Under the pieces are notes generated by a model, which was not told the origin of the DNA, did not search any database, and saw only the letters and a list, made by a program, of their open reading frames with translations. From the NCBI GenBank assembly GCA_030526995.1, contig JAUNBP010000001.1, positions 28,963 to 92,962 on the forward strand: a stretch of DNA of 64,000 bases, in the 5' to 3' direction. Shown piece by piece: positions 48,218 through 64,000 of this stretch. The translations under genes were made by a program, and so were the position numbers. Positions within the stretch are counted from its first letter, which is position 1, and each line of letters starts with the position of its first letter. The DNA is from Clostridia bacterium. GTDB taxonomy: Bacteria > Bacillota > Clostridia > Christensenellales > CAG-138.

Positions 48218-48286
48218 GGTATAGCCTCCCAAGTGATTCTGCTCACATATCAATATCATTGTATCACGAGTTTCGGATTAAATCTA

Positions 48287-48390
48287 CTCTTTTCGACAAA
48301 ATTATGGATAATGTTATTTCCAACCCACTCCGAAGCCGTAAATTTGCTTAAAAAACCTCATTTTAGACCGCAAAAAAGTGTCCCAAACAA
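48287..48390 (+). repeat. 104-bp direct repeat, copy 1
   Basis: CTCTTTTCGACAAAA...AACCCACTCCGAAGCCGTAAATTTGCTTAAAAAA...CCTCATTTTAGACCGCAAAAAAGTGTCCCAAACAA; near-identical to 57035-57138. Confidence 0.93.
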
Positions 48391-48708
48391 TCCCTCAGCT
48401 TCGCAAAAAAGATGCACTTTGGGTTATACAAACAAACCTTGTATGATTTGAGATACAAGGTCTGTTCTGATTCAAAGCTATCTGTGAAGACTGCGCACCT
48501 TTATCTGATCAAATATGTGATATCTTAAAGTATTACCGAGAAGACGGCGGTCATGTATAATGATTACAATAGATTGAGGATTATTCCTAAAGCTCAGCTC
48601 AGGGAGATAGTTGAGCTGAAAAGAAAACCCAACAATATAATTCTAAAAAGAAGCAAGTATCCTTCGGAATTAAAGCAGTTGGCACATATTATATAAACGA
48701 AGATACTT

Positions 48709-49806
48709 TTATCCTTCAACCGGAAAGGCTGTTATTATCTTAACAACAAACCTCAAGATGCATGCAGCATCAGATGAACTAATGTCTCCTCCATCGACAT
48801 TCCCTCTATAAACCTGTTCCTCCGAGAGCGTTTTTAAGTGAACAATATGCCTCAAAACCTCAGCAGCATCGGCGGAAGTGACTTCTTTATCCATGTTTAC
48901 ATCTCCGAAGAGAATCAAACTTTCAAGTATAAACGACTTCTCATCGGTATAATCATTGTCAAGGAAAGACACTGTTGCAGTATAGCGAATCTCACCGTTT
49001 TGCGTATATGTCGGAGGCACTGATGTGCAGGACACTTCAGCTTCAACCCTATGAATGTGTGTTGAATCGTTTTCGCATATAAATATGGCTTCTACATCAT
49101 AGCCGATATCCGTTTCCTCCCATAGCCATTCCGGCCCTAAAAAGCTGTGCCCCAAAGCTTCTATAATTTGCTGCTCGACAATGAAAACATTACAAATTGG
49201 GCAAAAAAGTCCTTCGGTTAGACCCGAGCAAGTGCATGTTGCATCAACTGCATCCACAACGGTAAGACTGTCTATTTGCAGTCCTCCATCTTCGAAAGTA
49301 ATATTTAGTGGCGAGTATTCTTCATTGGTAAACACCATAGATTCCGTTGTATCGATTGCTATCGACGCAAAGCCCTCCGACGACTCTTTTGTTCTAAACG
49401 ACATGGTGAGTATACTTCCGGCATCTCTAATAGGTTCTACTATTGTCTCCCAACTAACATAAACATAGCCTGCTATATTCGTGTTGATTGTTAGTCCCCC
49501 TAATCCATTCATAGCACTTCCAGATGTCGCAGACTCAAGTTCAAGCCGTGTAGAATCATAAGCGATGGCAAACTGCATAACATAAATATTGGCATTCGCT
49601 CCAATGGTTGCATCAATTACATAACTTGTGTCAGGATGAGCGTGACTCACCGTTGTTACAGCCAAGCACATAGTTTCTGTCGCCGTCGCAGATTTTATCG
49701 GAAATGCCGCAGACACCAGGAGCACAAGGACAAACGCCCATGCCTTGCACTTAATTGTCAGCATTCTGCAGCATTTCCGTTGTGCTTTATTTCCCTTGTA
49801 CTTCAT
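48709..49806 (-). CDS. secreted cohesin plus dockerin adaptor protein
   Basis: Signal peptide; cohesin-like MQFAIAYDSTRLEL...GSILTMSF; Cys/His repeat (ATCT..G.TEG..C..C...ALGH); dockerin GDVNMDKEVTSADA / DISSSDAACILR. Confidence 0.82.
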   Translation of the reverse strand: MKYKGNKAQRKCCRMLTIKCKAWAFVLVLLVSAAFPIKSATATETMCLAVTTVSHAHPDTSYVIDATIGANANIYVMQFAIAYDSTRLELESATSGSAMNGLGGLTINTNIAGYVYVSWETIVEPIRDAGSILTMSFRTKESSEGFASIAIDTTESMVFTNEEYSPLNITFEDGGLQIDSLTVVDAVDATCTCSGLTEGLFCPICNVFIVEQQIIEALGHSFLGPEWLWEETDIGYDVEAIFICENDSTHIHRVEAEVSCTSVPPTYTQNGEIRYTATVSFLDNDYTDEKSFILESLILFGDVNMDKEVTSADAAEVLRHIVHLKTLSEEQVYRGNVDGGDISSSDAACILRFVVKIITAFPVEG

Positions 49807-52800
49807 TAGGATACCTCTATCGGGAAGACATCAATTAATTTAGCGGAATACCTGCGAATTAGATTCGCATCTATGACATTAACCTGCCCATCGCCGTTGA
49901 CATCGGAAAGAATCAATGCTGTGTCGGAAAGAGTAAGCAGCTTTGCCGAATACCTTCTAATAATATTGGCATCAATTACATTAACACTTCCGCTCATATC
50001 CACGTCTCCATAATTAAACTCAAGAACTTGAAGTATATCCGAAAATATGTCAACGCCAATATGCTCGACTTCACCATCGGGGTTCCATCTGCATAAGATG
50101 AATGGATATGCGTCATCGCTTCCATCTTCAACATACACTAATGTTTCCTGTGTAATTGCAGTATCGACAACGGAGAAGTACAAGTCTAAAACCACCCCTC
50201 CATCGTTTATTCCTCCGACTCCATCCCACGCAAAGGAGATTTCGCCATCGATGGCTGTGTTTATTGTCGGAGCAAGGTTTTCTAACAATTCTCCGCCCCT
50301 GCAATCCTCAACTTTTAATACGCTTGGATCATACCGCACAACAAACTGCATCATTGATGCTCCGGTTCCTTCTGACAAATTGACAGTAACGTGAGAAGTT
50401 GCTCCCTTAACGACGGCCCTTGCCTCAACCCACAAGGAAGAATTTTGTTCACTTGGAGGTACTATAATAATGTTTCGACTTCCTACCGTTCCGCTGCCGT
50501 CATTTGCGGTTGCAACAATAGTTACAGTTCCCTCCTTTGTCGCAGTTAAAATGCCGTCAGTGGAAATCACCGCCTCTCCCGTGCCGGCAACGACGTCCCA
50601 CTCAACCGTATTGTCATAAGCATTATCGGGTGCGATTATCGCAGCAACTTGGACAGAGTCGCCAAGAAGTACCGTATCGTTGACATCAACTACAATTTCT
50701 GATACCGGAGCATATTCACCAAAGAATACTTGCATTACCTCTTGACTGAGTTCTGCACTCTCAATCCAAATGCTGCCGGCATATTCATACTGTTTAATTG
50801 CGCGAACCGCATACCAGTACGGAGCTACTGAGGAAACATTATCATCCAGATACACATTGCTAGCGCTGAACATTGAAGACTCTTGTCCGTATTGATCCGT
50901 CCTGTAAACCATGTACCCATCTGCGCCCTCAACAGCATCCCATGTCACTGTTATCATCTCGCTATTCGCTGTCGCCGAAATGTTTCGCGGAGTTGCGGGA
51001 ATGGTGCCTTCGGGAACAATGACAAACTCGTGGGTGGTTGTCATGGGATTCTTGTTTTCGCTATTACAGGTGACTTCGAGGATTGCCGTTTCTGAAATCA
51101 CGAACGGTTCAGTATAAACAAACTCGGCATCCACTTCGTCCTGCTCCTCTCCATCACTATTAATGATATCTCCTGTCCCTTCACTCCCTACGACTTCACT
51201 CTCGGGGAAGTAATATATTTTGCAAACGATTTCAGCATCGCTATCCTCGCAGGATAGGGCAATGGTCTGTGAACCCTCGTAGATTCCGTCGCTGATATTT
51301 ATTTCCGCAGTTTCCGTATCCTCGTCGTAGAGAATTATAGGAGTAAGTACCAGTGGGCCCGTAACAGATAAATAACTGTCGTCGCTCCACGATTCCAAAT
51401 ATGTGCCTTCGGCCAAATTCAGCTCAGGAGCCGTCGCTGCATCACCATGTGATACCTGTTGCTCACTGACGATATTTCCCTCCTCATCAAGGAATTGTAC
51501 AGTGTAGACTTTCTTCTCATATTGAGCATATAGAATCAAGCTCTTAGTAACACTTCCGACTGTATTTCCATCTGCATCCTTCCATCCTATAAAGTTGAAA
51601 CCTTCCCTATCCTCAGGGGTAGGCGTATCTATTGCGCTGCCATAAGTTAAATCCGTTTGCATCGCAACAGAGGCATTTTCCCAATCGACATATACAACCG
51701 TAAATGATTTGGGGGCAAAACGCGCCTTAATCGTCATGTTATCCCTTATATTTGTGAGACCATATTCCCATCCTATGAAAGTATAACCTTCTTTCAATGC
51801 AACCTCAGGAGCGACAATGCTGCCGCCCTCATTGACATATTGGGTTTCTCCGATTTGCGCACCGGTCAGTTCGTCAACAAAGGTTACTGAATATATCGGG
51901 GTCGGTGCCTTATAGAGGTCTCCGGTGTCGATGAATAGCGGAGATGTGGCACCTTCGATAGTCAAGCTTACGGTAAAATCACCGGTTTTTGCTGACGGCA
52001 TCTCTAAGGTTCTCACATTGCTGAACGAATAAGATCCATCCGCCCCCAAAGTCGTTTGTGCAATGTATTCATTGGAGTAATCCGAAGCTTCATCCACTTT
52101 GTAGATAGTCAGTATGGCTTGTCTTCCCTCGACATTTTCCAATCCGGTAACCACTCCGCTGATTGTAACTGCTTCGTCTTCGGGTTGCTCCAATTTCACA
52201 CGGATAAGCTCTCGAGTTTCGACTTGCAAGGTGTCACTTGCAATCGTCTCCATATCGTCCCACTCAGACCAATCTGTCCATGCGGCATATTGGTAAATCG
52301 GAATATCTTCACGGGTACGATAACGGTACTGCGTCTTGTAGGTAGCCGGAATTTGTCGACTTTCTTCCCAGTAGTATGTGGAGTTTGAAACCGTATATTT
52401 ATGCCACCAATATCTCCAATTTCCGCTTCTGTTGCTGTATATTCCATTGCCTATCGTGTTATTTTTCGTAGTGTAGACAGCCCAAGTTGAAGATGTGCCG
52501 TGTCTTGTGGTAGACCAGTTCGTATAGTTTAGATACCAGGTTCCGCCGTATCTGCTCTTGGCTGAAATATCGTTTGAATGATACCATGTGCCCTTGCTGC
52601 AATTTGTGCTCTTGTATCTACCATATCGATACTGTGTATAGGCTGCAGTTGCCTCTGCCTGTCGGGTTTCGACATCGACATTCTCCGATGCAACGATTTC
52701 TGCATCCTGCCAAGCACTCCAAGCGCTCCACTCACTCTTTTGGGTGGAGGTCTGATACAGCTCCCAATCAAGATAACTCGTGCTGGTTGTCCACTCGCTG

Positions 52801-55583
52801 AATTGCAGCGTCTTTGTCCGATATTGAGTTTTTGTCTGAACAATCGAGTCTCCTTGGATCAAGTGAGCCATTTCTTCAGGAGTTCCCCAGTCCGTCCAGT
52901 CCAGCTCGCCCGTTCCCATTGTTTTAACCGCTATTTGTGATAAGGGTATCATGGACGAGTACGCATCTACTATATACACCTCGGTTGATGCGAAGTTCTC
53001 GCCTCGAATATCCGTTGAGATGGGAACATATAATCGGAAATTCAAGGAGCTTTCGCCGTCAATGTAAAATGCATTGGATTCAGTCTTAGTTAAAAATTTC
53101 CCAAATGCCGATTTTAATGCAATGACCGCACGACCGTTGCGTCCCGTTTCCGTATGGTTTGTCATAGAGTAAGTGACCCAATATCCATATATTACTCCAT
53201 TGCGCTGTACAACGGTCACCTCATCGACAGTCGCAGTAATAGGAATATCCTTATTTGCCCAAACAGCACACGGAGTGCAAACAACATCCTGCGTTACGGC
53301 AAGATAAGCATCCGTGTCCCAGCCGGCAAGAGTATAACCTGTCGGCAATTTCAACAGTGATTCGTCAGGAGGGATTGCACAGCCCGGCGTGTCCCCATCA
53401 TAGCATACAATGCTTTCCTGTGCAATTTCGCCATTGTAATCCAAAAACGTAACCGTGTATTCTATTGGTTCATACAGGGCTGAAACCGTACGATCCGACA
53501 CAACATTTGTTAAAGAGCCACTCCATCCTTCAAAAGTGTAGCCCTCTCTGTCAGGCGTTCCCGGGGACACGGCGTCATCTCCATAGGCTACGGTTTGAGT
53601 TGTATAGGTTGAACCGTCATAATTCAAAAACGTTACAACGGAAGGTGCGTGAACGATGATCGTTGCCGCACTTGAATATTCGCTGTCACCGCTGACATTC
53701 GACGCTTTTACGCGAACCGTATAATTTCCCGCCTCGTTCAAAATGGTAGTTAAGGTTGTGGCGGGCGTCTTTGCCTCGTAGCAGACGTTTCCCGCTTCGT
53801 CATAGAATGTGACGGTATAGCTTCTTGCCCGAGAGCTTGCCCACCATGAGACCGTCAGCTCCTTGCCTGCGCCGACATGGTTTGTTATAGCCGTTAAGTT
53901 CGTTGCAGCAGGAGGCTCGATGGGCTCCCAAACCGCATACAACACCGTTGACGAGGAAGGAGTAAAACTTCCGTAGGGCAGAAAATCCGGGGCTTCCGCA
54001 TCATAATTTAACGCCCATCCGATAAAGTTGTATTGATCCCTCTGCGGCTTTGAAAGGGCATTAAAATATATGGTTGTCCCATGAGATACCGTTTGGCTGC
54101 TTGGTGCATTCATTCCTTCGTTGGCATCAAAATCAATGGTATACTTTGGCACGACCTTCTTCTGGACATAAAAATCCCATTCCTGCCATGAGCAAGTACC
54201 CTCCACATCCCACATTTCTATATAGAAGGTATACTGACCCGCCTTAAGTTTGGAAAACTTCATCTTATTACATTCTGCTGCGGTAATGGTATAGCTTTTT
54301 CCACTAAGTCCATCATTTGGAACTACAAACAGAATGTCATCTTCTTCCCAACTGTATATGTACATGGTATACTTGCTCAGATTGGTTACGGAAGACTTTA
54401 ATACCGTTCCTCGGACATACACATTTGAATTTCCCTCGGTAAGGTTTTTGCTCAGATTAGCGACATCGGAGGTCGGGTTTATCGTAATTACGGTTTTTAC
54501 ACCGCTTGTATCAACAGAACCCTCGTAGACCCATCCGTATAGCGCATTACCCTTATCGTCGAACCCGTATCGAACCTTATACCATGTATTTCCGTAGTGG
54601 TTTTTTATGCGACCCGTAACGGGAAGGGAACGGGAAGTAGTGCACACTCCCCCACTTGTATATGCCGCATACGGTTGCTGGTTAACTTCGAGCCATTTTG
54701 ACCCGGAAGGGGAAGTTTGCACATAACCTGAAACGGCTTCAATGGTGTAGGAATATACATCGCTGTAGTATTTTTCGCATCCATCGCAATACCCTATCGA
54801 ATTCCACTCATGCTGATGATAGTTAATCCCCTTTGTTATTACCGCATATAATGTGCAAAATCCCGATTCCAGGATACCTTTTGATGTTGTCCCATACCGT
54901 TTTCCCATTACGCTGTTCTCGAGTTTTATCATACCTTTGTCCCAATAATCTCCGGCGGGGTCTAAACAATAGAATGTATCACCCACATAGTGTGTTAAAA
55001 GAACTCCATGCGAGTTAATTATATTACCGTTTTTATCTTTTTTTCTACACCACACCAAAACACCTTCGGGATGACTGTCAAGAAGTGTCTTCCACTTATT
55101 CAATGGCTGTTGCGTAACTTGTATTTGCTTTATTCTATATTCGTAATCAGATGGTTTCACCTTTTCAACCTTACGCCATTGTACACTCACGTTCTTACCG
55201 TTTTTTTTGTATATCCAATCTAATGTAACTGCTTTGGACCATGTATTATAGTCAACACCGTTAATAATTTCAGCTCGTCTCAGCAGCATAGCCAAGCTAC
55301 ACAAGACACATGACTCCGGAATGTCTACTTGTGATATCGCCACTTTCTTTTGCAACTCCTCGTCCATCAACTGATCGTACAAAAAGGCTCCTGCAGCTCT
55401 CGTATTGGACATCGTTTCAGCGTCAGTTATAGCGTCCGCAGTTGAACCGTCATTTACCTCGTCCGGCGCATCAACCGTCGTGGTATCCACCGGGTCAGCA
55501 GCCGTTGTGTCAGCCATAGGAAATAGTGCCATTGCCATTATCAAAACCAACAATCCACTTAAAATCCTTTTTACTACCTTCAT
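49806..55583 (-). CDS. ~1925-aa secreted multidomain protein: C39-like peptidase, SH3b-like, InlB B-repeats, Fn3, Ig-like, cohesin, dockerin
   Basis: SQVDIPESC..., HGVLL...FYCLDP; WYKV...GWV; repeated VTF.D...P.REGYTF.GW; MQFVVRYDPSVL cohesin; duplicated VNVIDAN.IRRYSAKL dockerin. Confidence 0.82.
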   Translation of the reverse strand: MKVVKRILSGLLVLIMAMALFPMADTTAADPVDTTTVDAPDEVNDGSTADAITDAETMSNTRAAGAFLYDQLMDEELQKKVAISQVDIPESCVLCSLAMLLRRAEIINGVDYNTWSKAVTLDWIYKKNGKNVSVQWRKVEKVKPSDYEYRIKQIQVTQQPLNKWKTLLDSHPEGVLVWCRKKDKNGNIINSHGVLLTHYVGDTFYCLDPAGDYWDKGMIKLENSVMGKRYGTTSKGILESGFCTLYAVITKGINYHQHEWNSIGYCDGCEKYYSDVYSYTIEAVSGYVQTSPSGSKWLEVNQQPYAAYTSGGVCTTSRSLPVTGRIKNHYGNTWYKVRYGFDDKGNALYGWVYEGSVDTSGVKTVITINPTSDVANLSKNLTEGNSNVYVRGTVLKSSVTNLSKYTMYIYSWEEDDILFVVPNDGLSGKSYTITAAECNKMKFSKLKAGQYTFYIEMWDVEGTCSWQEWDFYVQKKVVPKYTIDFDANEGMNAPSSQTVSHGTTIYFNALSKPQRDQYNFIGWALNYDAEAPDFLPYGSFTPSSSTVLYAVWEPIEPPAATNLTAITNHVGAGKELTVSWWASSRARSYTVTFYDEAGNVCYEAKTPATTLTTILNEAGNYTVRVKASNVSGDSEYSSAATIIVHAPSVVTFLNYDGSTYTTQTVAYGDDAVSPGTPDREGYTFEGWSGSLTNVVSDRTVSALYEPIEYTVTFLDYNGEIAQESIVCYDGDTPGCAIPPDESLLKLPTGYTLAGWDTDAYLAVTQDVVCTPCAVWANKDIPITATVDEVTVVQRNGVIYGYWVTYSMTNHTETGRNGRAVIALKSAFGKFLTKTESNAFYIDGESSLNFRLYVPISTDIRGENFASTEVYIVDAYSSMIPLSQIAVKTMGTGELDWTDWGTPEEMAHLIQGDSIVQTKTQYRTKTLQFSEWTTSTSYLDWELYQTSTQKSEWSAWSAWQDAEIVASENVDVETRQAEATAAYTQYRYGRYKSTNCSKGTWYHSNDISAKSRYGGTWYLNYTNWSTTRHGTSSTWAVYTTKNNTIGNGIYSNRSGNWRYWWHKYTVSNSTYYWEESRQIPATYKTQYRYRTREDIPIYQYAAWTDWSEWDDMETIASDTLQVETRELIRVKLEQPEDEAVTISGVVTGLENVEGRQAILTIYKVDEASDYSNEYIAQTTLGADGSYSFSNVRTLEMPSAKTGDFTVSLTIEGATSPLFIDTGDLYKAPTPIYSVTFVDELTGAQIGETQYVNEGGSIVAPEVALKEGYTFIGWEYGLTNIRDNMTIKARFAPKSFTVVYVDWENASVAMQTDLTYGSAIDTPTPEDREGFNFIGWKDADGNTVGSVTKSLILYAQYEKKVYTVQFLDEEGNIVSEQQVSHGDAATAPELNLAEGTYLESWSDDSYLSVTGPLVLTPIILYDEDTETAEINISDGIYEGSQTIALSCEDSDAEIVCKIYYFPESEVVGSEGTGDIINSDGEEQDEVDAEFVYTEPFVISETAILEVTCNSENKNPMTTTHEFVIVPEGTIPATPRNISATANSEMITVTWDAVEGADGYMVYRTDQYGQESSMFSASNVYLDDNVSSVAPYWYAVRAIKQYEYAGSIWIESAELSQEVMQVFFGEYAPVSEIVVDVNDTVLLGDSVQVAAIIAPDNAYDNTVEWDVVAGTGEAVISTDGILTATKEGTVTIVATANDGSGTVGSRNIIIVPPSEQNSSLWVEARAVVKGATSHVTVNLSEGTGASMMQFVVRYDPSVLKVEDCRGGELLENLAPTINTAIDGEISFAWDGVGGINDGGVVLDLYFSVVDTAITQETLVYVEDGSDDAYPFILCRWNPDGEVEHIGVDIFSDILQVLEFNYGDVDMSGSVNVIDANIIRRYSAKLLTLSDTALILSDVNGDGQVNVIDANLIRRYSAKLIDVFPIEVS

Positions 55584-55626
55584 CCTATACTCCCTCCATA
55601 CTTGAAAATGTATTCGTTTCGTGCTT

Positions 55627-56634
55627 TTACCTGCGCTGTTTAGCCAAAAGCCAAACGGCAACAGCCGCCATTAAAACTGCTGCACAAAGAACAAACGGCC
55701 ACCACGGAATTGGCTTCGCCGTCCCCTTGTCGCTTTCTTCCTCATCCTCGCTTGCAGTATTCTCCGTCTCTGTAACTATATCTAAATCCTCGACATCGGT
55801 ATTGTCAATATTTTCAACATCGGAAACCTTAACCGATATTCCGCAGGTTGCATAAGTGGTTCCATCCAACGTCTCCGCAGTAATAATAGCTTCCCCCTCC
55901 GATACAGCGGTTACGGTTCCGTCCTCTGAGACAATTGCAACCTGCTCGTTGCTGCTCGTCCATACCACCTGCTCGCTCGTGTCGATGACATAAAGCTCCT
56001 GCGTCTCTCCTGCCGTTATTATCGATGCGTTTTCGTTCAAGGTGATTCCACTGTTTATTCCTTCAACAACGGTCGGTGAAGTTGTTGCGGCAGGATGTGG
56101 GCTGTATGATAAATCGCTGCCATCCGTAGCTTGATTGGGAGTCGGTGACCACTGTTCACTCGAGAGGTTAAGAATCACATCCTCGATTTCCAACTCGATT
56201 TGATCATAGTTGCTATCCACAACAATGAACTCTTGTGACATATCGAAGCTAACAATCGTTTCTCCTGTAGCAGACGGACGCTTCATAAAGGTCAGATTCA
56301 TCAGTTCCCCTCCCGATTCCAACGGGGAAAGGGAATCCCACACAAAGAAGATAACACCCTCATTCGGATGTGACATTAACGGCACCGTACTGCTTTCAAA
56401 ACAATCACCGACGTTCATCGAAACAAATTCCAGTTTTTCGGGTTCATATACAACGGCGAACTGTATGGCGACTGCTCCACCTGCATCTGACAGCATGACC
56501 GAAATAAGATAATTTTCCTCGTCGATTCCATTTGAAATAAGCTTAAGCGAGCCAATATTGTTTGCATTAGAAATACAAGGTAAAAAAGAACTAATGAGTG
56601 CAATAGCCATAAGAATAATAAATTTTCGTCTCAT
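55627..56634 (-). CDS. membrane-anchored cohesin protein (cohesin, Ig-like Big_2, C-terminal TM helix)
   Basis: Signal peptide; IQFAVVYEPEKLEF...GELMNLTF; VWTSSNEQVAIVSEDGTVTAVSEG; PWWPFVLCAAVLMAAVAVWLL followed by KQRR. Confidence 0.82.
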   Translation of the reverse strand: MRRKFIILMAIALISSFLPCISNANNIGSLKLISNGIDEENYLISVMLSDAGGAVAIQFAVVYEPEKLEFVSMNVGDCFESSTVPLMSHPNEGVIFFVWDSLSPLESGGELMNLTFMKRPSATGETIVSFDMSQEFIVVDSNYDQIELEIEDVILNLSSEQWSPTPNQATDGSDLSYSPHPAATTSPTVVEGINSGITLNENASIITAGETQELYVIDTSEQVVWTSSNEQVAIVSEDGTVTAVSEGEAIITAETLDGTTYATCGISVKVSDVENIDNTDVEDLDIVTETENTASEDEEESDKGTAKPIPWWPFVLCAAVLMAAVAVWLLAKQRR

Positions 56635-57034
56635 TGACTTCCCTCCAAGTAACCCCAACAATACAAATCGTCGAACAGAGCCTCTGCTCTTTTCTCACAT
56701 TCTCACACGGAGCATTCGTTCCTATGACACTTCAGTCCAATTTCGTTTATCTATCAAATCAATTTTATCAAAGGTTTTCAATAAATGCAAGCCCTAAAAG
56801 CAAAGATTTTTAATTTTTCCTTAAAAAAATTTTAACAGGCGACTTTGGTAGTTTAAGCCATAAAGTTTAGGAGTATAAAAAGGAGGAGGGCAGGACCTAT
56901 CACGCTATCGATAAGAGCTCTTAATCGCAGGCTAAAACGAGATAGCTCCGCAGAATATTCAATGGATGAAATTCACTCGCGCCTTACATCTCTTTACTAA
57001 CGTTATTTTAAGTGTTGGATACCAAAGTCAGGAT

Positions 57035-58635: not shown

Positions 58636-60603
58636 ATGGAAAAACTTAAAAAAAGGATTCGGAAACGAATCAAAGAACTCTCAAAACTGAAAAAAGCAAT
58701 TATCTGTATTGCAGTGGCAGCTTTCGTACTGTACTGGATAGGCATAGGAGCGCAAGCGATACACTTGCAGTTTAAGCGATTCACAGACGGGAATCTGTTT
58801 AATCCCGCTGCAACCCAACCCGTTAATTGGCTTCCGATAAGCGGAGCGTATAACTATCTGTTCACAACGGTAATCGGACTGGTGTTCTTTGCGGCACTGG
58901 TTATCTTCATCATTTGGTTTGTCGGCTATCTGAGAGCAAGGAGCAAATGGGCTGAAGGCACAGAGGACGAGGAACGGAACTTCACACAGGGTGCAAAAGG
59001 CACATACGGAACGGCTAAATGGCTGACAAAGGAAAAAGCAGAGGAAGTTCTGGAATTTGGCAAGATAGAGGACATAATGGGAACAGTGCTTGGCAAATAT
59101 GAGAACGGTGTCGTAAGCCTGCCAAGTGATACAAGACTGAACCAGCATATCGCAATCATGGGTGCAAGCGGTACAGGTAAGTCAAGGGGCTTCTCCCGAA
59201 CGCATATCATCCAAAGCGTAAGGAGAGCCGAATCAATCATAGTCACCGACCCTAAGGGTGAACTGTACAATTCAACTGCCGCATATTGCAAGGAACATGG
59301 GTATGAGGTAAAGGTCTTGAACCTTGTTTCCCCCGAACACAGCGACTATTGGAATGTCATGGACGAGATGTGCGGGAATACCCTGCGAGTACAAACGCTT
59401 GCGGAAGTCATTATTCAGAATACCAATGTGAGCAGTAAAGGCGGTGACAGGTTTTGGGACGATTCAGAAACAAACCTTGTTAAAGCAGTCGCCCTAATGG
59501 TCGAGTTGGACAAGCCGTCAGACGGGAATGGCACACTGCGTAAGACCCTGCCGATTATCTATAAGCTGATAGCAGGGAACAGCGAAAAGGACTTGATAAG
59601 TATGTTTGCAAGAAAGGGCATAGTGTCGGATGCACACCCCGCATATATCCCGCTGCAAATGTTCTTGCAGGCAGACCCAAAGGTACGAGCAAGCGTTGTA
59701 ACGGGCTTTGGCACACGACTTCATATCTTGCAGGATAAGACGATACAAAAGATGCTGTCACACTCAAATATAGACCTGTCGCTTCCTGCGAAAAAACCGT
59801 GTGCGTATTACATCATACTAAGGGATAACGATAGAAGCCTTGACTTTATTGCAAGCCTTTTCTTCACATTCCTGTTTGTGCGAATCTGCGAATATGCCGA
59901 CAGCCAACCCGACTTGCGCTGTACAATCCCCGTCAATCTGATTCTGGACGAGTTCAGCAATATCGGCTCAATCCCGAACTTTGAACAGGTGTTGAGTACC
60001 ATACGAAGCCGTGAAGTCCATGTGAGTATCATCTTGCAGAACATAGCACAGTTGAAGAATAGATACCCGAACGATGTATGGAGCGAAATCTTGGGCAACT
60101 GCGACACTCAAATTCTTTTGGGCTGTACCGATGAATACACTGCCCAATACTTTTCGGACAGAAGCGGTGAAATGACGGTCATAGTGGACAGCAATCGGTA
60201 CGGACGGAAAACCTTTGCCCCCGGTCAAATCATAGACGACCACCAAGTAATGACAGGTGTGGGTAAACGCCCCCTGCTTACCATGCACGAGGTTCTAACC
60301 CTGCCGTCCGATGAACTGCTGATATGTCTGCGCGGCAACGATGTGCTTAAAGCCAAGAAGTTTGACTATACCGAACACCCCGAAAGCAAGTACCTCAAAG
60401 AACTAAATTGCAGGAACTATAACCCCAACACAATCTTTGAGCAGCCAGAGCAGCCAGCACCTCCCCGTCAGACTGGAAATGAGGATACGATTCCTACATC
60501 AAATTCCCCGTCTGACACGAGCGTGAAACCCAAGCCCAAACCCAAACCCAAGACCGACCAAGAGCAGCCGAATCTGTTTTGGTTTGAATCTAAATCAGAT
60601 TAA
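58636..60603 (+). CDS. VirD4/TraG-family type IV coupling protein
   Basis: Two N-terminal TM segments, YGTAKW, GASGTGKS, VTDPKGE, LDEFSNIG, IRSR...IILQNIAQL..RY. Confidence 0.95.
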   Translation: MEKLKKRIRKRIKELSKLKKAIICIAVAAFVLYWIGIGAQAIHLQFKRFTDGNLFNPAATQPVNWLPISGAYNYLFTTVIGLVFFAALVIFIIWFVGYLRARSKWAEGTEDEERNFTQGAKGTYGTAKWLTKEKAEEVLEFGKIEDIMGTVLGKYENGVVSLPSDTRLNQHIAIMGASGTGKSRGFSRTHIIQSVRRAESIIVTDPKGELYNSTAAYCKEHGYEVKVLNLVSPEHSDYWNVMDEMCGNTLRVQTLAEVIIQNTNVSSKGGDRFWDDSETNLVKAVALMVELDKPSDGNGTLRKTLPIIYKLIAGNSEKDLISMFARKGIVSDAHPAYIPLQMFLQADPKVRASVVTGFGTRLHILQDKTIQKMLSHSNIDLSLPAKKPCAYYIILRDNDRSLDFIASLFFTFLFVRICEYADSQPDLRCTIPVNLILDEFSNIGSIPNFEQVLSTIRSREVHVSIILQNIAQLKNRYPNDVWSEILGNCDTQILLGCTDEYTAQYFSDRSGEMTVIVDSNRYGRKTFAPGQIIDDHQVMTGVGKRPLLTMHEVLTLPSDELLICLRGNDVLKAKKFDYTEHPESKYLKELNCRNYNPNTIFEQPEQPAPPRQTGNEDTIPTSNSPSDTSVKPKPKPKPKTDQEQPNLFWFESKSD

Positions 60604-60686
60604 GCTGGCTCGTCTCGTCAGACTGGAAATGAGCTTAATTTTTTACAATCCAATTTCCCGTCTGATGGAGCGTTACGGGAGGAAAG

Positions 60687-60918
60687 CATCCCCGCTGACC
60701 TCAAAAAACCCACAACAAGCTCATTCTAAAAAACCAACCACCCCTTAAATCGCAAATAAATGCGTTTGGTGGCATTTTAGGAAAACATAGGCAATCACCC
60801 TCGAAGAACACAAAAAGCCAAAATATCGCAAATGGTGAAGCGTGGTGGCATTTTAACAAGGGTGGTGTGGAGGGGTGTGCGTGAGGGTGAGGAAAGAGCA
60901 GCCAGACCCCCGTAGCTC
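60687..60918 (+). repeat. long structured repeat A, copy 1
   Basis: CATCCCCGCTGACCTC...CCTTAAATCGCAAATAAATGCG...CATAGGCAATCACCCTCG...CGCAAATGGTGAAGCGT...CCAGACCCC; second copy at 61786-62004. Confidence 0.9.
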
Positions 60919-61138
60919 AGAAGACCCTCCCTGTCAGACTGGAAATCAGTTTGCTTTTTTAGAACCAAAATTCCAGTCTGATAGAGCGTCACGGGCGGAG
61001 AGCATTCCCAATTAAGTCGTCAGGTATCCGGGAGAAATTTTCCTGTCATACTGGAAATTACACTGATTTTTTGTGAGCAAAATTCCCGTCTGATAGAGGG
61101 CAGTGTGCGGGCAGCCACAATAAGTACTCAATTAAAAC

Positions 61139-61260
61139 ATAGGGTGGTGTACACCCAAATCTACGCCTGTGGAGAGAAAGTAAGACGGCGCATTGTTGCC
61201 GCAAACTCATTAAAGCAGGAAGCAATAATTTATTGCATACAACAAATCATTACTCATAGA
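61139..61260 (+). ncRNA. stand-alone TnpB omegaRNA-like scaffold plus putative guide, copy 1
   Basis: ATAGGGTGGTGTACACCC AAATCTACGCCTGTGGAGAG..GTAAGAC...CTC..AAAGCAGGAAGC, then a GCAATAA-T-TTATTGC hairpin; translates as IYACGE, like tnpB 3' tails. Confidence 0.7.
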
Positions 61261-61275
61261 AAGGAGAAAAGAAGC

Positions 61276-61698
61276 ATGAATTACATAAGCCCCAAGGCAA
61301 TCGACATTAAAAAGATTTGTTCCGACTTGCATATAAAGCTCAAAAAAACTAATCTGCCCAACGGACTGGTTGCAAAGACCGAAATATCCGAGGGAATAAC
61401 CCAAATCAGCGTGTCCGACAGGCTCTGCGAAGCCGACCGCCGCTACGCAATAGCAATAGAACTAAGCTATCTTGCGCGATATGGGTTCGCTCCCCCGTAC
61501 ATACATCTGCAATTCTCGTTTGCGCCGATAGAACCCAGCATACTCATAGCCGCCGATACGCTCATATGCCCCCCGGAGATAGCCAACTACTACAAAGCAG
61601 ACAAAAGTGAACCACTCGCCGCATATGCCCTGCGTGTGAGCGAAGCGTGTGGAATCCCCTACGCCCGTGCGAAGTGCTATATCGAACGCAATAGTTAA
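61276..61698 (+). CDS. ImmA/IrrE-like fold protein lacking HExxH
   Basis: IDIKKIC..L.I, RRYAIAIELSY in place of RRFTIAHELGH, AADTLICP; AAGGAG RBS. Confidence 0.55.
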   Translation: MNYISPKAIDIKKICSDLHIKLKKTNLPNGLVAKTEISEGITQISVSDRLCEADRRYAIAIELSYLARYGFAPPYIHLQFSFAPIEPSILIAADTLICPPEIANYYKADKSEPLAAYALRVSEACGIPYARAKCYIERNS

Positions 61699-61785
61699 AA
61701 GCTCAGCAGCCATCCCTGTCAGACTGGAAATCAGAATAAATATTTTTAACGAAATTTCCCGTCTGATGCGCTCGCCTCAACGCAC

Positions 61786-62004
61786 CATCCCCGCTGACCT
61801 CTAAGAACCCCCATAGAAATCATAATCAAAACCCAACCATGCCTTAAATCGCAAATAAATGCGTCTGGTGGCATTTTAGAAAACCATAGGCAATCACCCT
61901 CGGAGAATGCCCGAAGCCAAAATAGCGCAAATGGTGAAGCGTAGCGGCGTTTTGGAGAGGGGGGCGTGCGGGAGCTGGAAAAGAGAAACCAGACCCCGCA
62001 GCTC
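61786..62004 (+). repeat. long structured repeat A, copy 2
   Basis: Diverged direct repeat of 60687-60918; also flanked on both sides by palindromic sites. Confidence 0.9.
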
Positions 62005-62143
62005 GGTTCGTCAGACTGGAAATTGCATTGATTTTTTGTTTTATTCCCGTATGATAAAGCCCTCTGACGGAAAAGTTAATTTTACAAAAGCTATTGACAA
62101 TACTTCGGTTGTCCGACATAATAATAGCAGAGAGGTGATTTGG

Positions 62144-62719
62144 ATGAACTTGAACGATATGTTGAGAGAAAGGAATATGTCACGGTATCGGCTTTCAAAG
62201 CAAAGCGGGATTCCGCAGGCTACTCTAAGCGACATTTTCAGCGGCAAGGCGAAGATGTATCGATGCTCTGCCGAAACCGTTTACAGGCTCGCACAGGCAC
62301 TCGATGTTTCTATGGAGAGTTTGCTCGAACCCGAATTATCGGCAGAAAAGCGTAGCTCATTCGATGTGTACAGGAGTGGAGTATGTCACCTTGTCAAAGA
62401 CATGGGCGAAGTTGAGTTTGCCGTAGATATGCTTGAAAGGGACGAGGTTTCAAGGCTGTATGATAAAAAGTGGTACCCCGAAGCCTTTTATATGCTTGCA
62501 ATGATAGACTATCTGTGTAACAAGCACGAGGTTCCTTTGTGCAGCAAATACGATGAACTCCGTTGTCAGCGTTTGAAAAAGACCGTCTATCCGTCAAGCG
62601 CAGTTATCTTAGATGCAGCTACGAACACGGACGAGTACAAGGAGCAAGCGTTGAAAAATGCCACTCCGGAATTTATGCGTTTCAATATCGTTGAAAGCGA
62701 GGTAGAAAATGTCTGCTGA
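62144..62719 (+). CDS. XRE-HTH protein, probable antitoxin/regulator
   Basis: MSRYRLSKQSGIPQATLSDI HTH; WYPEAFYMLAMIDYL...PEFMRFNIVE; promoter TTGACA-N17-CATAAT with palindrome TCGG-N4-CCGA at 62105-62116. Confidence 0.82.
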   Translation: MNLNDMLRERNMSRYRLSKQSGIPQATLSDIFSGKAKMYRCSAETVYRLAQALDVSMESLLEPELSAEKRSSFDVYRSGVCHLVKDMGEVEFAVDMLERDEVSRLYDKKWYPEAFYMLAMIDYLCNKHEVPLCSKYDELRCQRLKKTVYPSSAVILDAATNTDEYKEQALKNATPEFMRFNIVESEVENVC

Positions 62720-62795
62720 ACTGTATTTTTCCAAGGAAAGGCTTGACGAGTGCCTTTTTATGCTTGCAAAGGAATATCGTAGGGACATTCAATAA
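62709..62795 (+). pseudogene. 28-aa stub of the partner gene (DUF6036-type nucleotidyltransferase N-terminus)
   Basis: MSAELYFSKERLDECLFMLAKEYRR, overlapping the HTH stop; resembles the F(T/S)KExLDxYLxxLAKEFR start of this family (from recall). Confidence 0.55.
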
Positions 62796-62922
62796 CCAAA
62801 AGCGGATTGTATGAACAAAGCGTAAACAAACACGAATTTTTTGAGTAATTGCCTAAAATTTAACGCTTTAGTTTATAGAGGGGCATCTGCCCTTTTTGCC
62901 CTTCAAAAAATTACACAAAAAG

Positions 62923-63028
62923 ATAGGGTGGTGTACACCCAAATTTAAGCCCGTGGAGATTGCTTTTACAATCGTTGAAGCGGGAAACAATAATTTATTG
63001 TATACAAAAACGGTACGCAAGGATAATT
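62923..63028 (+). ncRNA. stand-alone TnpB omegaRNA-like scaffold plus putative guide, copy 2
   Basis: ATAGGGTGGTGTACACCC AAATTTAAGCCCGTGGAGATTG..CAATCGTTGAAGCGGGAA ACAATAA-T-TTATTGT ATAC. Confidence 0.7.
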
Positions 63029-63093
63029 TGCAGGAAGTTCTCAACGCTCTTAAATCTAAAATTAAACAATAAAAATAAATCAGAAATCAAAAT

Positions 63094-63200
63094 ATAGGGC
63101 GGAGTACGCCCGAATTTACGCCCACGGAGATTGTGCTTGCAATCGTCGAAGTGGGAAGCAATAATTTATTGCATACTCACAAGATGCACTCTCTGGTATC
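63094..63200 (+). ncRNA. stand-alone TnpB omegaRNA-like scaffold plus putative guide, copy 3
   Basis: ATAGGGCGGAGTACGCCC GAATTTACGCCCACGGAGATTG..CAATCGTCGAAGTGGGAA GCAATAA-T-TTATTGC ATACTCAC. Confidence 0.72.
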
Positions 63201-63559
63201 CTCAGCCGCACCCCCCGTCAGACGGGGAATGACATTGTTTTTTTGTAAGCAAATTTCCAGTCTGATGCTCTCGCCTCTCCTCGACGGGGAATTGCATAGC
63301 GTTTTTTCAATCAGATTTCCAGTCTGATGCAAAACCCGCGTGCGAGCCTCCCATCGAGTAGCCCATCGCGACCCCCGCCCCGCACTCTACCTTGACGGCG
63401 AAAAAGAGAAAAAAATCTCAAAATTACCCTCAAAAATGAACAAAGTGTAAACAATCGTCCAAAAGTGATAGTAAATGCGTAAAAAAACACGCTTAAAGTA
63501 ATGAGGGACAAAAAATATCTCTTTCACAAAAAATCAAAAAAAGCAAGGAGGAAATATCA

Positions 63560-64000
63560 ATGCAGCACAATAAGGCCTACAAGTTTCGGCTTTACCCAAC
63601 CCGGCAACAACAAGAGCAAATCTTTCGCACTTTTGGCTGCTGCCGATTTGTTTATAACCATTACCTCGACAAGCGAAAGACATTGTATGAAGAACAAGGC
63701 AAAAAAATGAGCTTCTTCGATTGCACGAAAGACTTAACAATACTCAAAAAGGAACTCACATGGCTGGGCGAGGTAGAGCTTGTAGCCCTCCGTTACTCAA
63801 TCAAAGACCTTGATTTTGCTTTTCAGAATTTTTTTCGCGGTGCAGGCTACCCCAAATTCAAATCAAAGAAGGGCAGCCACCGCCACAGCTATCGCTCGGA
63901 CGGGAGTAATATCTCGTTTTCGGGAAACAAGGTCAAGCTGCCTAAACTTGGCTGGGTCAAATGCAAAGTAAGCCAGCCTATTAAGGGACGGATTCTAAAC
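63560..64000 (+). CDS. tnpB: RNA-guided endonuclease TnpB family protein (IS200/IS605), N-terminal 147 aa, cut by the window edge
   Basis: Absent from the ORF track; manual translation gives MQHNKAYKFRLYPT...FGCCRFVYN...DLDFAFQNFF.G.GYPKFKSKK...KLPKLGWVK; AAGGAGG RBS. Confidence 0.93.
   Translation, partial: MQHNKAYKFRLYPTRQQQEQIFRTFGCCRFVYNHYLDKRKTLYEEQGKKMSFFDCTKDLTILKKELTWLGEVELVALRYSIKDLDFAFQNFFRGAGYPKFKSKKGSHRHSYRSDGSNISFSGNKVKLPKLGWVKCKVSQPIKGRILN

What the first reader, a model, noticed from the sequence alone, without database searches (positions are those of the whole stretch)
61139..64000. Three stand-alone TnpB omegaRNA-like scaffolds with different guides upstream of a tnpA-less tnpB: candidate domesticated multi-guide RNA-guided system
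Seen: three diverged copies of an ~85-105-nt non-coding unit start at 61139, 62923 and 63094, all on the tnpB strand, and none is preceded by a tnpB ORF. Three helices covary. The 5' hairpin is GGGTG/CACCC in copies 1 and 2 and GGGCG/CGCCC in copy 3. A long-range pair is CCTGT/GCAGG, CCCGT/GCGGG and CCCAC/GTGGG. The terminal hairpin is GCAATAA/TTATTGC or ACAATAA/TTATTGT. Similarity ends abruptly after ATAC and each copy continues differently (AACAAATCATTACTC, AAAAACGGTACGCAAG, TCACAAGATGCACTCTC). Established: the hairpin-ACGCCTGTGGAGA...GAAGCAGGAAGC layout is typical of IS605/IS1341 right ends that encode the TnpB omegaRNA, whose guide is the 3' flank. Inference: these RNAs load the nearby TnpB in trans as a small guide repertoire, used either as a nuclease against competing elements or as a TldR-like repressor. 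The short AT-rich terminal hairpin does not look like a typical TnpA-bound end, which suggests loss of mobility.
Basis: partly seen in the sequence, partly recalled or inferred. Interest (0 to 1): 0.9.

Follow-up and report, generated by a model that had tools for sequence, protein, structure and literature searches.

The report
Spare guide-RNA scaffolds beside a TnpB
Three gene-less copies of the guide-RNA scaffold of a transposon nuclease (TnpB) sit just upstream of the one intact nuclease gene; this kind of arrangement has been described before, and their use as extra guides is plausible but unproven.

Summary
Units at 61140-61242, 62923-63007 and 63095-63178 (+ strand) are real paralogues. 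A fourth copy lies 12 nt after the stop codon of the tnpB gene that runs off the window. A covariance model built from the four copies hits nothing else in the genome. It does hit the right end of 11 of 14 TnpB relatives, each 9-16 nt after the stop codon.

The units have the architecture published for the ISDra2 omegaRNA core: stems 1-4 plus a pseudoknot next to the guide, with compensatory changes. The TnpB is ISDra2-like and keeps D-E-D. No tnpA was found in the genome. The GC-rich TnpA hairpin of the relatives is replaced here by a short AT stem.

The claim of a curated multi-guide system is not shown:
- The guides are simply the flanking DNA.
- Copy 2 is a tnpB-deleted cassette inside a wrecked DUF6036 gene.
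- No second target turned up.
- A TldR-like role is contradicted by the intact catalytic residues.

Stand-alone omegaRNAs acting in trans, and irregular omegaRNA-like arrays, are already in print (PMC10691335). I rate this a new variant of a known kind, of moderate interest.

The parts
61140..61242 (+). Stand-alone omegaRNA-like scaffold, copy 1 (103 nt). It has the long stem 3 with the GTAAGAC motif also seen in relatives.
   Evidence: CM R1 85.8 bits. The MFE fold gives 4 helices, z -2.0. Pseudoknot TGTA/TACA.
61243..61262 (+). Guide position of copy 1. This is the flank that runs into the ribosome-binding site of the 140 aa ORF at 61276-61698.
   Evidence: Position inferred by analogy with ISDra2. 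No second match in the own genome. Phage matches at chance level only.
62709..62783 (+). N-terminal stub (25 codons) of a DUF6036 nucleotidyltransferase gene that is about 240 aa long in relatives.
   Evidence: A profile of 7 homologues matches positions 1-25 of 242 at 20.6 bits. See also tblastn and Pfam on the homologues.
62811..62922 (+). Leader / left-part region of the copy 2 cassette, homologous to 63436-63543 upstream of tnpB. It ends where the tnpB ribosome-binding site would begin.
   Evidence: 78 of 101 ungapped aligned columns are identical. Score 68 against shuffles of 28.9 +/- 5.3; 0 of 1000 shuffles reach it (first seen).
62923..63007 (+). Stand-alone omegaRNA-like scaffold, copy 2 (85 nt, short stem 3).
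   Evidence: CM R1 107.3 bits. Fold z -3.0. Pseudoknot of 4-5 pairs.
63008..63072 (+). Guide position of copy 2 and the 89 nt spacer to copy 3. It probably holds the last ~21 codons of the disrupted DUF6036 gene.
   Evidence: The profile matches positions 215-235 of 242 at only 5.0 bits. This is the second best of 12 peptides and lies in the right order. tblastn gives E 1.3-3.6, so this is suggestive, not firm.
63095..63178 (+). Stand-alone omegaRNA-like scaffold, copy 3 (84 nt). It starts 22 nt after the stop codon of the DUF6036 stub.
   Evidence: CM R1 106.3 bits. Fold z -3.8. Perfect 5 bp pseudoknot GAGTA/TACTC.
63179..63198 (+). Guide position of copy 3. This flank leads into two copies of the local hairpin repeat.
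   Evidence: No second match in the own genome. Phage matches at chance level only.
63436..63559 (+). Region upstream of tnpB (leader and ribosome-binding site). It contains no tnpA and no hairpin like the right-end one.
63560..64000 (+). tnpB, first 147 codons. The gene runs on to window-equivalent 64651 (363 aa). The cis scaffold follows at 64663-64742 (L001 5626-5705), outside the window.
   Evidence: Pfam OrfB_IS605, Cas12f1-like_TNB and HTH_OrfB_IS605. ISDra2 TnpB at E 1.7e-84 with D-E-D aligned. Cis copy: CM 84 bits; its fold lacks stem 4.

Best explanation
The units are complete, ORF-less copies of the omegaRNA scaffold (the right-end module) of an ISDra2-like IS605-family TnpB element. 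The locus lies next to a type IV coupling-protein gene of a conjugative-type element. It holds one intact nuclease gene, one cis scaffold and three stand-alone scaffolds, and it shows no TnpA-type mobility apparatus.

Most likely mechanism. The stand-alone units are transcribed. Copy 2 would be read from a retained tnpB-type leader and copy 3 by read-through or from copy 2. The RNAs are bound in trans by the TnpB encoded 0.4-2.4 kb downstream. Each RNA directs TnpB to DNA identical to the sequence just right of its own unit, that is, to alleles of the same sites that lack the unit. Cleavage followed by recombinational repair would keep or spread the units and linked DNA. This is selfish retention or homing, not a curated defence repertoire and not gene repression.

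Shown: homology to the right-end module, a conserved fold including the pseudoknot, intact catalytic motifs, and no tnpA found. Inferred: transcription, loading in trans, the TAM, cleavage and homing.

The confidence given (0.42) is for the whole statement including the mechanism. For the identity of the units as omegaRNA scaffolds alone I would say about 0.9.
For: Identity of the units:
- A fourth copy lies 12 nt after the tnpB stop codon.
- CM R1 gives 4 matches in the own genome, all on one strand within 3.6 kb.
- It matches 11 of 14 loci with TnpB relatives (33-53% identity), each 9-16 nt after the stop codon or overlapping it by 1 nt in the truncated L007 (the arithmetic is mine).
- In 150 genomes of the same family, 5 matches in 4 genomes all sit behind tnpB homologues.

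Fold:
- Across 15 family members, 97.7% of 260 cells pair, against 29-46% when partners are slid. 17 of 20 pairs change on both sides (that alignment was fitted to the model).
- Among the 4 paralogues, 96.8% of 93 cells pair, against 32-57% slid, and 8 of 24 pairs change on both sides.
- The published ISDra2 core is 116 nt: stems 1-4 plus a pseudoknot at -5..-3, with stem 3b dispensable (PMC10097598, passages). The units map onto it.
- Pairing between the stem-1 loop and the element's tail reaches at least 4 contiguous pairs in 14 of 16 members scored, in four different sequence classes. 0 of 2000 tail shuffles reach the observed mean.
- Copies 1 and 2 versus copy 3 show a compensatory U:A to A:U swap in this pseudoknot.
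- All three stand-alone copies fold into the four helices (z -2.0 to -3.8). The cis copy has lost stem 4 and keeps only a 3 bp pseudoknot.

Nuclease: aligns to ISDra2 TnpB residues 3-373 with D, E and D in place.

Copy 2 is a precise tnpB-less cassette: the leader is joined to the scaffold.

Precedent: stand-alone omegaRNAs work in trans with compatible effectors (PMC10691335, passages). PATEs often encode omegaRNAs that need TnpB in trans (PMC10055086, passages).
Against: - There is no expression or binding data. No sequencing run was listed, so nothing could be laid on the locus.
- Only one locus in one 80%-complete metagenome-type assembly carries this arrangement. The TnpB is a singleton at 90% identity, seen on 1 contig, so conservation of the arrangement cannot be tested.
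- The promoter scan found no sigma-70-like site upstream of any unit on the + strand at its threshold. A weak terminator-like hairpin lies 25 nt before copy 2 (my reading).
- The TAM is unknown, and no naive allele of any of the sites was found.
- Without a TnpA no vacant donor site arises in the same cell, so homing needs encounters with related elements that have not been observed.
- The cis scaffold looks degraded, which also fits general decay.
- How the unit-only copies 1 and 3 reached their sites is unexplained.
Confidence: 0.42

Rival explanations
1. Inert relics. Several diverged IS605-family elements inserted into this single-strand-prone stretch of a conjugative element in the same orientation. 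Deletions then removed tnpB from three of them. The units do nothing today.
For: - Copy 2 sits between the first 25 and probably the last ~21 codons of a DUF6036 gene that is about 240 aa in 7 of 9 related HTH cassettes examined, so insertion plus deletion damage happened here.
- The guide positions are plain flanks with no other target.
- The cis scaffold has lost stem 4.
- The 68-84% identity between copies means they are not recent duplicates. Compensatory changes could have been inherited from active ancestors elsewhere.
- No tnpA or resolvase was found in the genome.
Against: - In all three stand-alone copies, homology starts within a few bases of the same point (about where a tnpB stop codon would lie) and ends at the same point. 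The flanks show no similarity: scores of 19 and 29 against a shuffle mean of 28.9. Three random deletions should not share end points.
- None of the 72 helix and pseudoknot cells of the three stand-alone copies is unpaired, despite 16-23% divergence.
- tnpB itself is intact, with its ribosome-binding site and catalytic residues.
Confidence: 0.33
2. One reading: a domesticated multi-guide system whose guides were selected against competing mobile elements, or which acts as a TldR-like transcriptional repressor.
For: - No tnpA was found, and the TnpA-type hairpin is lost at the right end and missing upstream of tnpB.
- Four scaffolds with four different 3' flanks sit within 3.6 kb.
- The stand-alone scaffolds are better formed than the cis one.
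- Irregular omegaRNA-like arrays with repeats over 60 bp have been noted near some TnpB/Cas12f relatives (PMC10691335).
Against: - The catalytic D-E-D is present, unlike the nuclease-dead TldRs (TldR definition from PMC13565253, passages).
- At 16 nt with up to 2 mismatches, no guide has a convincing second site in the own genome. The best is one 15/16 match on another contig, about what chance gives.
- Against 50,697 phage records the best E-values are 0.6-8, in unrelated hosts.
- Plasmids were searched only with the 3.4 kb stretch 60600-64000, which contains all three stand-alone guide flanks, at E <= 1e-5. That limit is too strict to show a guide-length match, so plasmids were in effect not tested for targets.
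- The copy 2 flank appears to be the leftover tail of the gene it interrupts. That is what an insertion leaves, not what selection for a target would give.
Confidence: 0.1
3. The 3' half of the unit is an outward-facing promoter/operator module that drives the downstream gene. The palindrome CAATAA-T-TTATTG would be a repressor site.
For: - The promoter scan places sigma-70-like sites inside copy 2 (TTTACA, 18 nt, AATAAT; 10 of 12) and copy 3 (TTGCAA, 17 nt, AATAAT; 9 of 12), pointing out of the unit.
- By eye the cis copy has TAGACA, 17 nt, TAATTA.
- Copy 1 lies 33 nt upstream of an ORF with a good ribosome-binding site, and the cis copy 105 nt upstream of a lipoprotein gene.
Against: - The scan as a whole is not enriched: 7 sites against 4.4 +/- 2.1 in shuffles.
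- Copy 1 has no -35-like hexamer.
- This idea does not explain the conserved stems 1-3, the pseudoknot, or the homology to the module behind tnpB in 11 of 14 relatives.
Confidence: 0.05

Closest known systems
ISDra2 TnpB with its omegaRNA (Deinococcus radiodurans; PDB 8exa, 8h1j; PMC10097598)
   Same: The protein aligns over residues 3-359 to ISDra2 3-373 at E 1.7e-84, with D-E-D in place. The RNA module has the same parts: stem 1, a pseudoknot next to the guide, long-range stem 2, a variable stem 3 and a guide-proximal stem 4.
   Different: - The protein lacks the dispensable C-terminal domain, so the scaffold lies wholly behind the ORF.
- The scaffold is 78-103 nt instead of 116 nt.
- Stem 4 is a 5-6 bp AT stem instead of a TnpA-type hairpin.
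- There is no tnpA.
- There are three extra scaffolds without an ORF.
Stand-alone omegaRNAs acting in trans (Altae-Tran et al. 2021, as summarised in PMC10691335)
   Same: Scaffold copies without an effector or transposase, in the same genome as an effector locus, each with its own flank as guide.
   Different: Those are described as evidently mobilised and dispersed. Here all copies lie within 2.4 kb upstream of the only tnpB. They show no TnpA-type ends, and no transposase was found in the genome. I did not read the 2021 paper itself.
PATEs: gene-less IS200/IS605 mini-elements (Meers et al. 2023 preprint, PMC10055086)
   Same: Gene-less derivatives that keep the omegaRNA-encoding right end and would need TnpB in trans. 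Copy 2 keeps a left part homologous to the tnpB leader.
   Different: PATEs have matching left-end and right-end hairpins and occur in many copies that TnpA can move. Here no left-end hairpin matches the right end, copies 1 and 3 have no left part at all, and the copy number is 3, all in one place.
Irregular omegaRNA-like arrays and the proposed origin of CRISPR arrays by serial duplication of omegaRNA segments; TranC intermediates (PMC10691335; Jin et al. 2025 as cited in PMC13565253)
   Same: Long scaffold-like repeats (over 60 bp) with sharp scaffold/guide boundaries next to a TnpB-type gene. Copies 2 and 3 are in tandem with an 89 nt spacer.
   Different: The start-to-start spacing is irregular (1784, 171 and 1568 nt). 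The repeats are whole scaffolds, not split crRNA and tracrRNA. They lie upstream rather than downstream of the gene. The protein is a typical small TnpB.
TldR (nuclease-dead TnpB-like repressors)
   Same: A tnpA-less tnpB relative with an adjacent guide RNA gene.
   Different: The catalytic residues are kept, and no guide matches a promoter elsewhere in the genome.

Membership tests
IS200/IS605-family TnpB omegaRNA scaffold (ISDra2 type) | Sequence and structure homology to the module directly 3' of tnpB genes | tested here: met
   CM R1 hits the cis copy (84 bits) and 11 of 14 relatives' right ends, 9-16 nt after the stop codon. All 5 hits in 150 family genomes lie behind tnpB homologues. No curated Rfam family matched at E <= 10.
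IS200/IS605-family TnpB omegaRNA scaffold (ISDra2 type) | Stems 1-4 supported by covariation | tested here: met
   97.7% of cells paired against 29-46% slid, and 17 of 20 pairs with changes on both sides, in 15 sequences (alignment fitted to the model). 96.8% against 32-57% in the 4 paralogues.
IS200/IS605-family TnpB omegaRNA scaffold (ISDra2 type) | Pseudoknot between the stem-1 region and the last bases before the guide | tested here: met
   14 of 16 members scored have at least 4 contiguous pairs, in four sequence classes. Copies 1-3 have 4-5, the cis copy only 3 and L022 only 2. Two further loci were dropped because the script found no end motif. The architecture is taken from PMC10097598.
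IS200/IS605-family TnpB omegaRNA scaffold (ISDra2 type) | Lies at the 3' end of a tnpB gene on the same strand | tested here: not met
   Met only by the cis copy. The three units in the finding have no tnpB ORF in front of them. This is what makes them stand-alone.
IS200/IS605-family TnpB omegaRNA scaffold (ISDra2 type) | Transcribed, processed and bound by TnpB; guides TAM-dependent cleavage | not testable with these tools
   No sequencing run was listed for the locus, and there is no biochemical tool here.
PATE / non-autonomous IS200/IS605 element | Left and right ends with similar subterminal hairpins recognised by a Y1 TnpA | tested here: not met
   Relatives carry the same GC-rich TTTA-loop hairpin at the left end and the right end. 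Here the right end has a short AT stem, and no second copy of it lies upstream of tnpB or of any unit.
PATE / non-autonomous IS200/IS605 element | A transposase available in the genome, and several dispersed copies | tested here: not met
   No Y1_Tnp, no tblastn hit with a relative's TnpA and no Resolvase in an 80%-complete genome. All 4 copies lie in one 3.6 kb stretch.
PATE / non-autonomous IS200/IS605 element | Empty-site allele in relatives | tested here: inconclusive
   Copy 2 interrupts a DUF6036 gene that is whole in 7 of 9 related cassettes examined, but 189 of 242 profile positions are also deleted, so this is not a clean empty site. Nothing comparable was found for copy 1 (0 of 398 other genomes hold the neighbouring ORF) or for copy 3.
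TldR (nuclease-dead TnpB-like repressor) | Loss of RuvC catalytic residues | tested here: not met
   D, E and D align with the ISDra2 catalytic positions. The residue numbers D191/E278/D361 are recalled; the alignment positions agree with them.
CRISPR-like or omegaRNA-like array | Regularly spaced repeats with short spacers next to the effector gene | tested here: not met
   Start-to-start spacings are 1784, 171 and 1568 nt. Only copies 2 and 3 are in tandem (89 nt apart), and genes lie between the other copies.

The most novel reading that the evidence does not exclude
An immobilised, still catalytic ISDra2-like TnpB has shifted from its own decaying cis guide to a small set of full-length omegaRNA genes just upstream. 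One of these is a precise tnpB-less expression cassette, and two stand in tandem like a repeat-spacer-repeat. If so, this is a living intermediate between a one-guide transposon nuclease and a multi-guide array, formed before any split into crRNA and tracrRNA.
Probability: 0.18. Interest if true: 0.75.

Novelty: new variant of a known kind. Interest (0 to 1): 0.5.

Why it matters
It is proposed in print that CRISPR arrays of type V systems arose by serial duplication of omegaRNA segments next to immobilised tnpB genes (PMC10691335). Natural loci caught at the stage of whole-scaffold duplication are rarely described. If the stand-alone scaffolds are loaded by this TnpB, the locus would show that multi-guide use can arise before the RNA is split and before regular arrays form.

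There is also a practical point. The units are naturally trimmed scaffolds of 78-103 nt for a 363 aa ISDra2-like nuclease. That is the kind of shortening that improved the engineered ISDra2 guide (Trim2, PMC10097598).

If they are only relics, the locus is still a clear example of how IS605-type insertions and deletions erode the cargo region of a conjugative-type element.

Tried and rejected
- Rfam: a gathering scan of the whole window found only a T-box. An E <= 10 scan of 60400-64000 gave four chance-level hits and no TnpB-, IS605- or HEARO-type family.
- blastn-short with the three units found only themselves and missed the cis copy. The cis copy was found by reading past the window end and by the covariance model.
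- DNA of the locus against 60 relatives gave no homologous locus. The stretch 60600-64000 against plasmids (blastn, E <= 1e-5) gave no match.
- A unit pattern against viral contigs gave 0 matches.
- TnpB against genome contigs and metagenome contigs gave a best of 49-51% identity, 8 loci each. TnpB against 400 genomes of the order found matches in 4 other genomes. No closer relative exists, so conservation of the arrangement could not be tested.
- Sequencing runs: none was listed and no RNA holder was listed.
- Guides against the own genome and against phages gave nothing above chance.
- Left-end search: the regions upstream of copies 1 and 3 show no similarity to the tnpB leader.
- The 140 aa ORF after copy 1 has no Pfam family and no homologue in the other 398 sampled genomes of the class, so no empty site could be sought there.
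- The local hairpin repeat was not found in any other fetched locus.
- I considered the unit being a mini-transposon with stem 1 as its left hairpin and rejected it: stem 1 and the terminal stem are unrelated in sequence, and in relatives stem 1 is internal to the element.
- I considered an IS607-type origin and rejected it: there is no resolvase, and the closest relatives carry Y1 tnpA.
- Supplementary files of papers were not opened. The supplements of PMC10691335 (the omegaRNA-like array figures) may hold closer precedents that I could not see.

Full report
**What is there.** The window is G000:C59:28963-92962, and the contig runs 2,295 nt further. The three units are real. TAGGG starts at 61140, 62924 and 63095, and all three lie on the + strand. 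Reading past the window end shows that the ORF starting at 63560 is a complete 363 aa tnpB (L001 4523-5614). A fourth copy of the unit begins 12 nt after its stop codon (L001 5626-5705). Pfam finds OrfB_IS605, Cas12f1-like_TNB and HTH_OrfB_IS605 in the protein.

I built a covariance model (R1) from the four copies with my own structure line. It finds exactly these four sites in the 1.79 Mb, 80%-complete genome, with E-values from 4e-22 to 2e-16. Rfam has no family for them.

**The unit is the right-end / omegaRNA module of this TnpB family.** I collected 14 loci with TnpB relatives at 33-53% identity.
- R1 hits 11 of the 14, each 9-16 nt after the stop codon, or overlapping it by 1 nt in L007, whose tnpB is internally truncated (the arithmetic is mine).
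- The three loci it misses (L039, L040, L041) are the more distant ones. By eye and by script, L039 and L040 show the same layout.
- In 150 genomes of the same family, the 5 hits in 4 genomes all lie behind tnpB homologues, and none is stand-alone.
- Relatives end in a GC-rich hairpin with a TTTA loop followed by TGTCAA or GTTCAA/GTTCAC.
- Eight of 11 relatives with usable upstream sequence show Y1 tnpA sequence just upstream of tnpB. In six the match is long; in two (L038, L039) it is partial.
- In the three relatives whose left ends I aligned, the left end carries the same hairpin.

These relatives are classical IS605 elements.

**Fit to the known RNA.** The protein aligns with ISDra2 TnpB (8bf8/8exa/8h1j) over residues 3-359 against 3-373, at E 1.7e-84. 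The aspartate, glutamate and aspartate that align with the ISDra2 catalytic positions are all present. The numbers D191, E278 and D361 are recalled, and the alignment agrees with them.

The protein stops where the dispensable ISDra2 C-terminal domain begins. In ISDra2 that domain overlaps the functional 116 nt scaffold (PMC10097598, passages read). This explains why the scaffold here lies entirely behind the ORF.

That paper describes stem 1, a pseudoknot between positions -105..-103 and -5..-3, long-range stem 2, stem 3a/3b (3b dispensable) and stem 4 next to the guide. The units map onto this one-to-one:
- The first hairpin is stem 1.
- The long-range pair is stem 2.
- The inner hairpin is stem 3. 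It is long, with a GTAAGAC motif, in copy 1 and in the relatives. It is short in copies 2 and 3 and in the cis copy.
- The AT-rich hairpin is stem 4.

Covariation is strong across 15 family members: 97.7% of 260 cells pair, against 29-46% when the partners are slid, and 17 of 20 pairs change on both sides. That alignment was fitted to the model, which favours the structure.

I also tested the pseudoknot. The 5-nt loop of stem 1 pairs with the last bases of the element in 14 of 16 members scored (at least 4 contiguous pairs). Four different complementary sequence classes occur:
- GACA/TGTC
- GAAC or GGAC/GTTC
- TGTA/TACA in copies 1 and 2
- GAGTA/TACTC in copy 3

0 of 2000 tail shuffles reach the observed mean. 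Two loci were dropped because the script found no end motif. The cis copy reaches only 3 pairs and L022 only 2. This shows that the element ends two bases after ATAC: ATACAA in three copies and ATACTC in copy 3. The odd TC of copy 3 compensates for a change in its loop.

**State of the four copies.**
- Among the four paralogues, 96.8% of 93 cells pair, against 32-57% slid, and 8 of 24 pairs change on both sides. The only unpaired cells are the pseudoknot cells of the cis copy.
- Minimum-free-energy folds of copies 1-3 give all four helices (z -2.0, -3.0 and -3.8). The cis copy lacks stem 4 (z -2.2).
- The stand-alone copies are 77-84% identical to one another and 68-72% identical to the cis copy. 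They are therefore not recent copies of the present cis module.
- Feature sharing is mosaic. Stem 1 groups copies 1 and 2 against copy 3 and the cis copy. The short stem 3 groups copies 2 and 3 with the cis copy.

**Surroundings.**
- The stretch lies just downstream of a type IV coupling-protein gene at 58636-60603.
- Copy 1 sits 33 nt upstream of a 140 aa ORF. That ORF has no Pfam family and no homologue in the other 398 sampled genomes of the class.
- The 112 nt before copy 2 (62811-62922) are homologous to 63436-63543, upstream of tnpB. 78 of 101 ungapped columns are identical, with a score of 68 against shuffles of 28.9 +/- 5.3, and 0 of 1000 shuffles reach it. The similarity stops just where the tnpB ribosome-binding site begins, and the scaffold follows directly. 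Copy 2 is therefore a precise tnpB-less cassette.
- That cassette lies inside a ruined gene. The HTH gene at 62144-62719 has full-length homologues (44-49% identity). In 7 of 9 loci examined, these are followed by an overlapping 236-259 aa DUF6036 nucleotidyltransferase gene.
- Here only the first 25 codons of that gene remain (20.6 bits against profile positions 1-25 of 242). After copy 2 there is a probable 21-codon tail (5.0 bits against positions 215-235). The tail match is the second best of 12 peptides and by itself only suggestive.
- Copy 3 starts 22 nt after that tail's stop codon, 89 nt after copy 2.
- The regions upstream of copies 1 and 3 show no similarity to the tnpB leader.

**Mobility apparatus.**
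- The assembled genome has no Y1 transposase by Pfam or by tblastn with a relative's TnpA. It has no resolvase-type recombinase either.
- It holds only one tnpB.
- The TnpB is a singleton at 90% identity, seen on one contig among about 15 billion proteins.
- The AT stem 4 has no counterpart upstream of tnpB.

The limits are an 80%-complete genome and a single locus.

**Targets.**
- The 16 nt after each unit, at three offsets and with up to 2 mismatches, have no convincing second site in the genome. The best is one 15/16 match, about what chance gives.
- 30 nt flanks searched against 50,697 phage records give best E-values of 0.6-8, in unrelated hosts.
- Plasmids were searched only with the 3.4 kb stretch 60600-64000 at E <= 1e-5, with no match. 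That limit is too strict to reveal a guide-length match.

So nothing points to guides chosen against other elements.

**Interpretation.** The identity of the units as complete omegaRNA scaffolds is well supported. Their role is not.

I favour trans use by the neighbouring TnpB for selfish retention or homing at their own sites (confidence about 0.4), for these reasons:
- The scaffolds are complete.
- They end at the same functional boundaries in all three copies, while the flanks are unrelated.
- They keep every helix and the pseudoknot despite 16-23% divergence.
- They sit beside an intact nuclease gene.
- Trans use of stand-alone omegaRNAs has been shown for other OMEGA systems (PMC10691335, passages; PMC10055086, passages).

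The main rival is that they are inert leftovers of insertions and deletions (about 0.33). The wrecked DUF6036 gene, the decayed cis scaffold and the absence of any comparative or expression data support it. A curated defence set or a TldR-like repressor is unlikely, and the TldR reading is contradicted by the catalytic residues. An outward-promoter role is a minor possibility. How the unit-only copies 1 and 3 reached their sites without a left end remains unexplained.

**Novelty.** The following are already in print:
- stand-alone omegaRNAs
- PATE-borne omegaRNAs
- irregular omegaRNA-like arrays with repeats over 60 bp
- the idea that CRISPR arrays arose by duplication of omegaRNA segments

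For these I read passages of PMC10691335, PMC10055086 and PMC13565253. Altae-Tran 2021 and Jin 2025 are known to me only through those texts.

What is particular to this locus:
- A typical small catalytic TnpB without TnpA-type ends.
- Whole scaffolds clustered upstream of it.
- One scaffold carried on a precise tnpB-less cassette.
- Two scaffolds in tandem.

I rate it a new variant of a known kind, with interest 0.5.

**Limits.** The evidence comes from one metagenome-type assembly near a contig end. No close relatives were found, and there are no RNA data.

Noticed in passing
window 60467-63330 (8 copies: 60467, 60617, 60933, 61045, 61718, 62010, 63217, and a degenerate one near 63279): A family of about 50 nt hairpins: GTCAGACTGGAAAT, a loop of about 22 nt with a T-run, then ATTTCCCGTCTGAT. 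The arm start-to-start spacing is a constant 36 nt and there is a conserved mismatch in mid-stem. All copies have the same orientation. They occur only in this stretch of the genome, mostly right after gene ends, like cassette boundaries. The 62010 copy has only its 5' arm at the search threshold, and the one near 63279 only its 3' arm. The hairpin was not found in any other fetched locus.
   Followed up: partly
window 60687-60869 and 61786-61968 (L001 1650-1832 and 2749-2931): Two copies (82% identical) of a 183 nt non-coding block, each followed by a hairpin repeat. No Rfam match. Function unknown.
   Followed up: no
window 62144-63072: An HTH_XRE gene whose usual partner, a DUF6036 nucleotidyltransferase gene of about 240 aa, is reduced to a 25-codon head and a probable 21-codon tail around the copy 2 cassette. 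The pair looks like a two-gene (possibly toxin-antitoxin-like) cassette that is intact in 7 of 9 related loci examined.
   Followed up: yes
window 62965-62994 and 63137-63165: Sigma-70-like hexamer pairs inside copies 2 and 3 (TTTACA, 18 nt, AATAAT; TTGCAA, 17 nt, AATAAT), facing out of the unit towards the next unit or towards tnpB. The -35 part lies in the stem 3 loop and the -10 part in the AT stem 4.
   Followed up: partly
window 6937-7146: A T-box leader (Rfam RF00230, 126 bits, E 1e-27) on the + strand. It is unrelated to the finding.
   Followed up: no
window 37417-56661, minus strand: Very large ORFs (1748 and 1951 aa) and cohesin/dockerin/Big_2 proteins (48709-49806, 55627-56661). These are cellulosome-like surface proteins just upstream of the conjugative-type segment.
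   Followed up: no
L007 (307-1134) and L024: A related element in which tnpB is internally deleted (residues 14-233 only, then the C-terminal few codons) and tnpA is truncated, yet the full right-end scaffold is kept. This is an example of ORF decay with the RNA module retained.
   Followed up: no
L001 5704-5810 (window-equivalent 64741-64847): The cis scaffold's flank leads after 105 nt into a 416 aa gene with a lipoprotein-like N-terminus and a PT-rich linker. By eye the cis unit carries TAGACA, 17 nt, TAATTA facing this gene.
   Followed up: no
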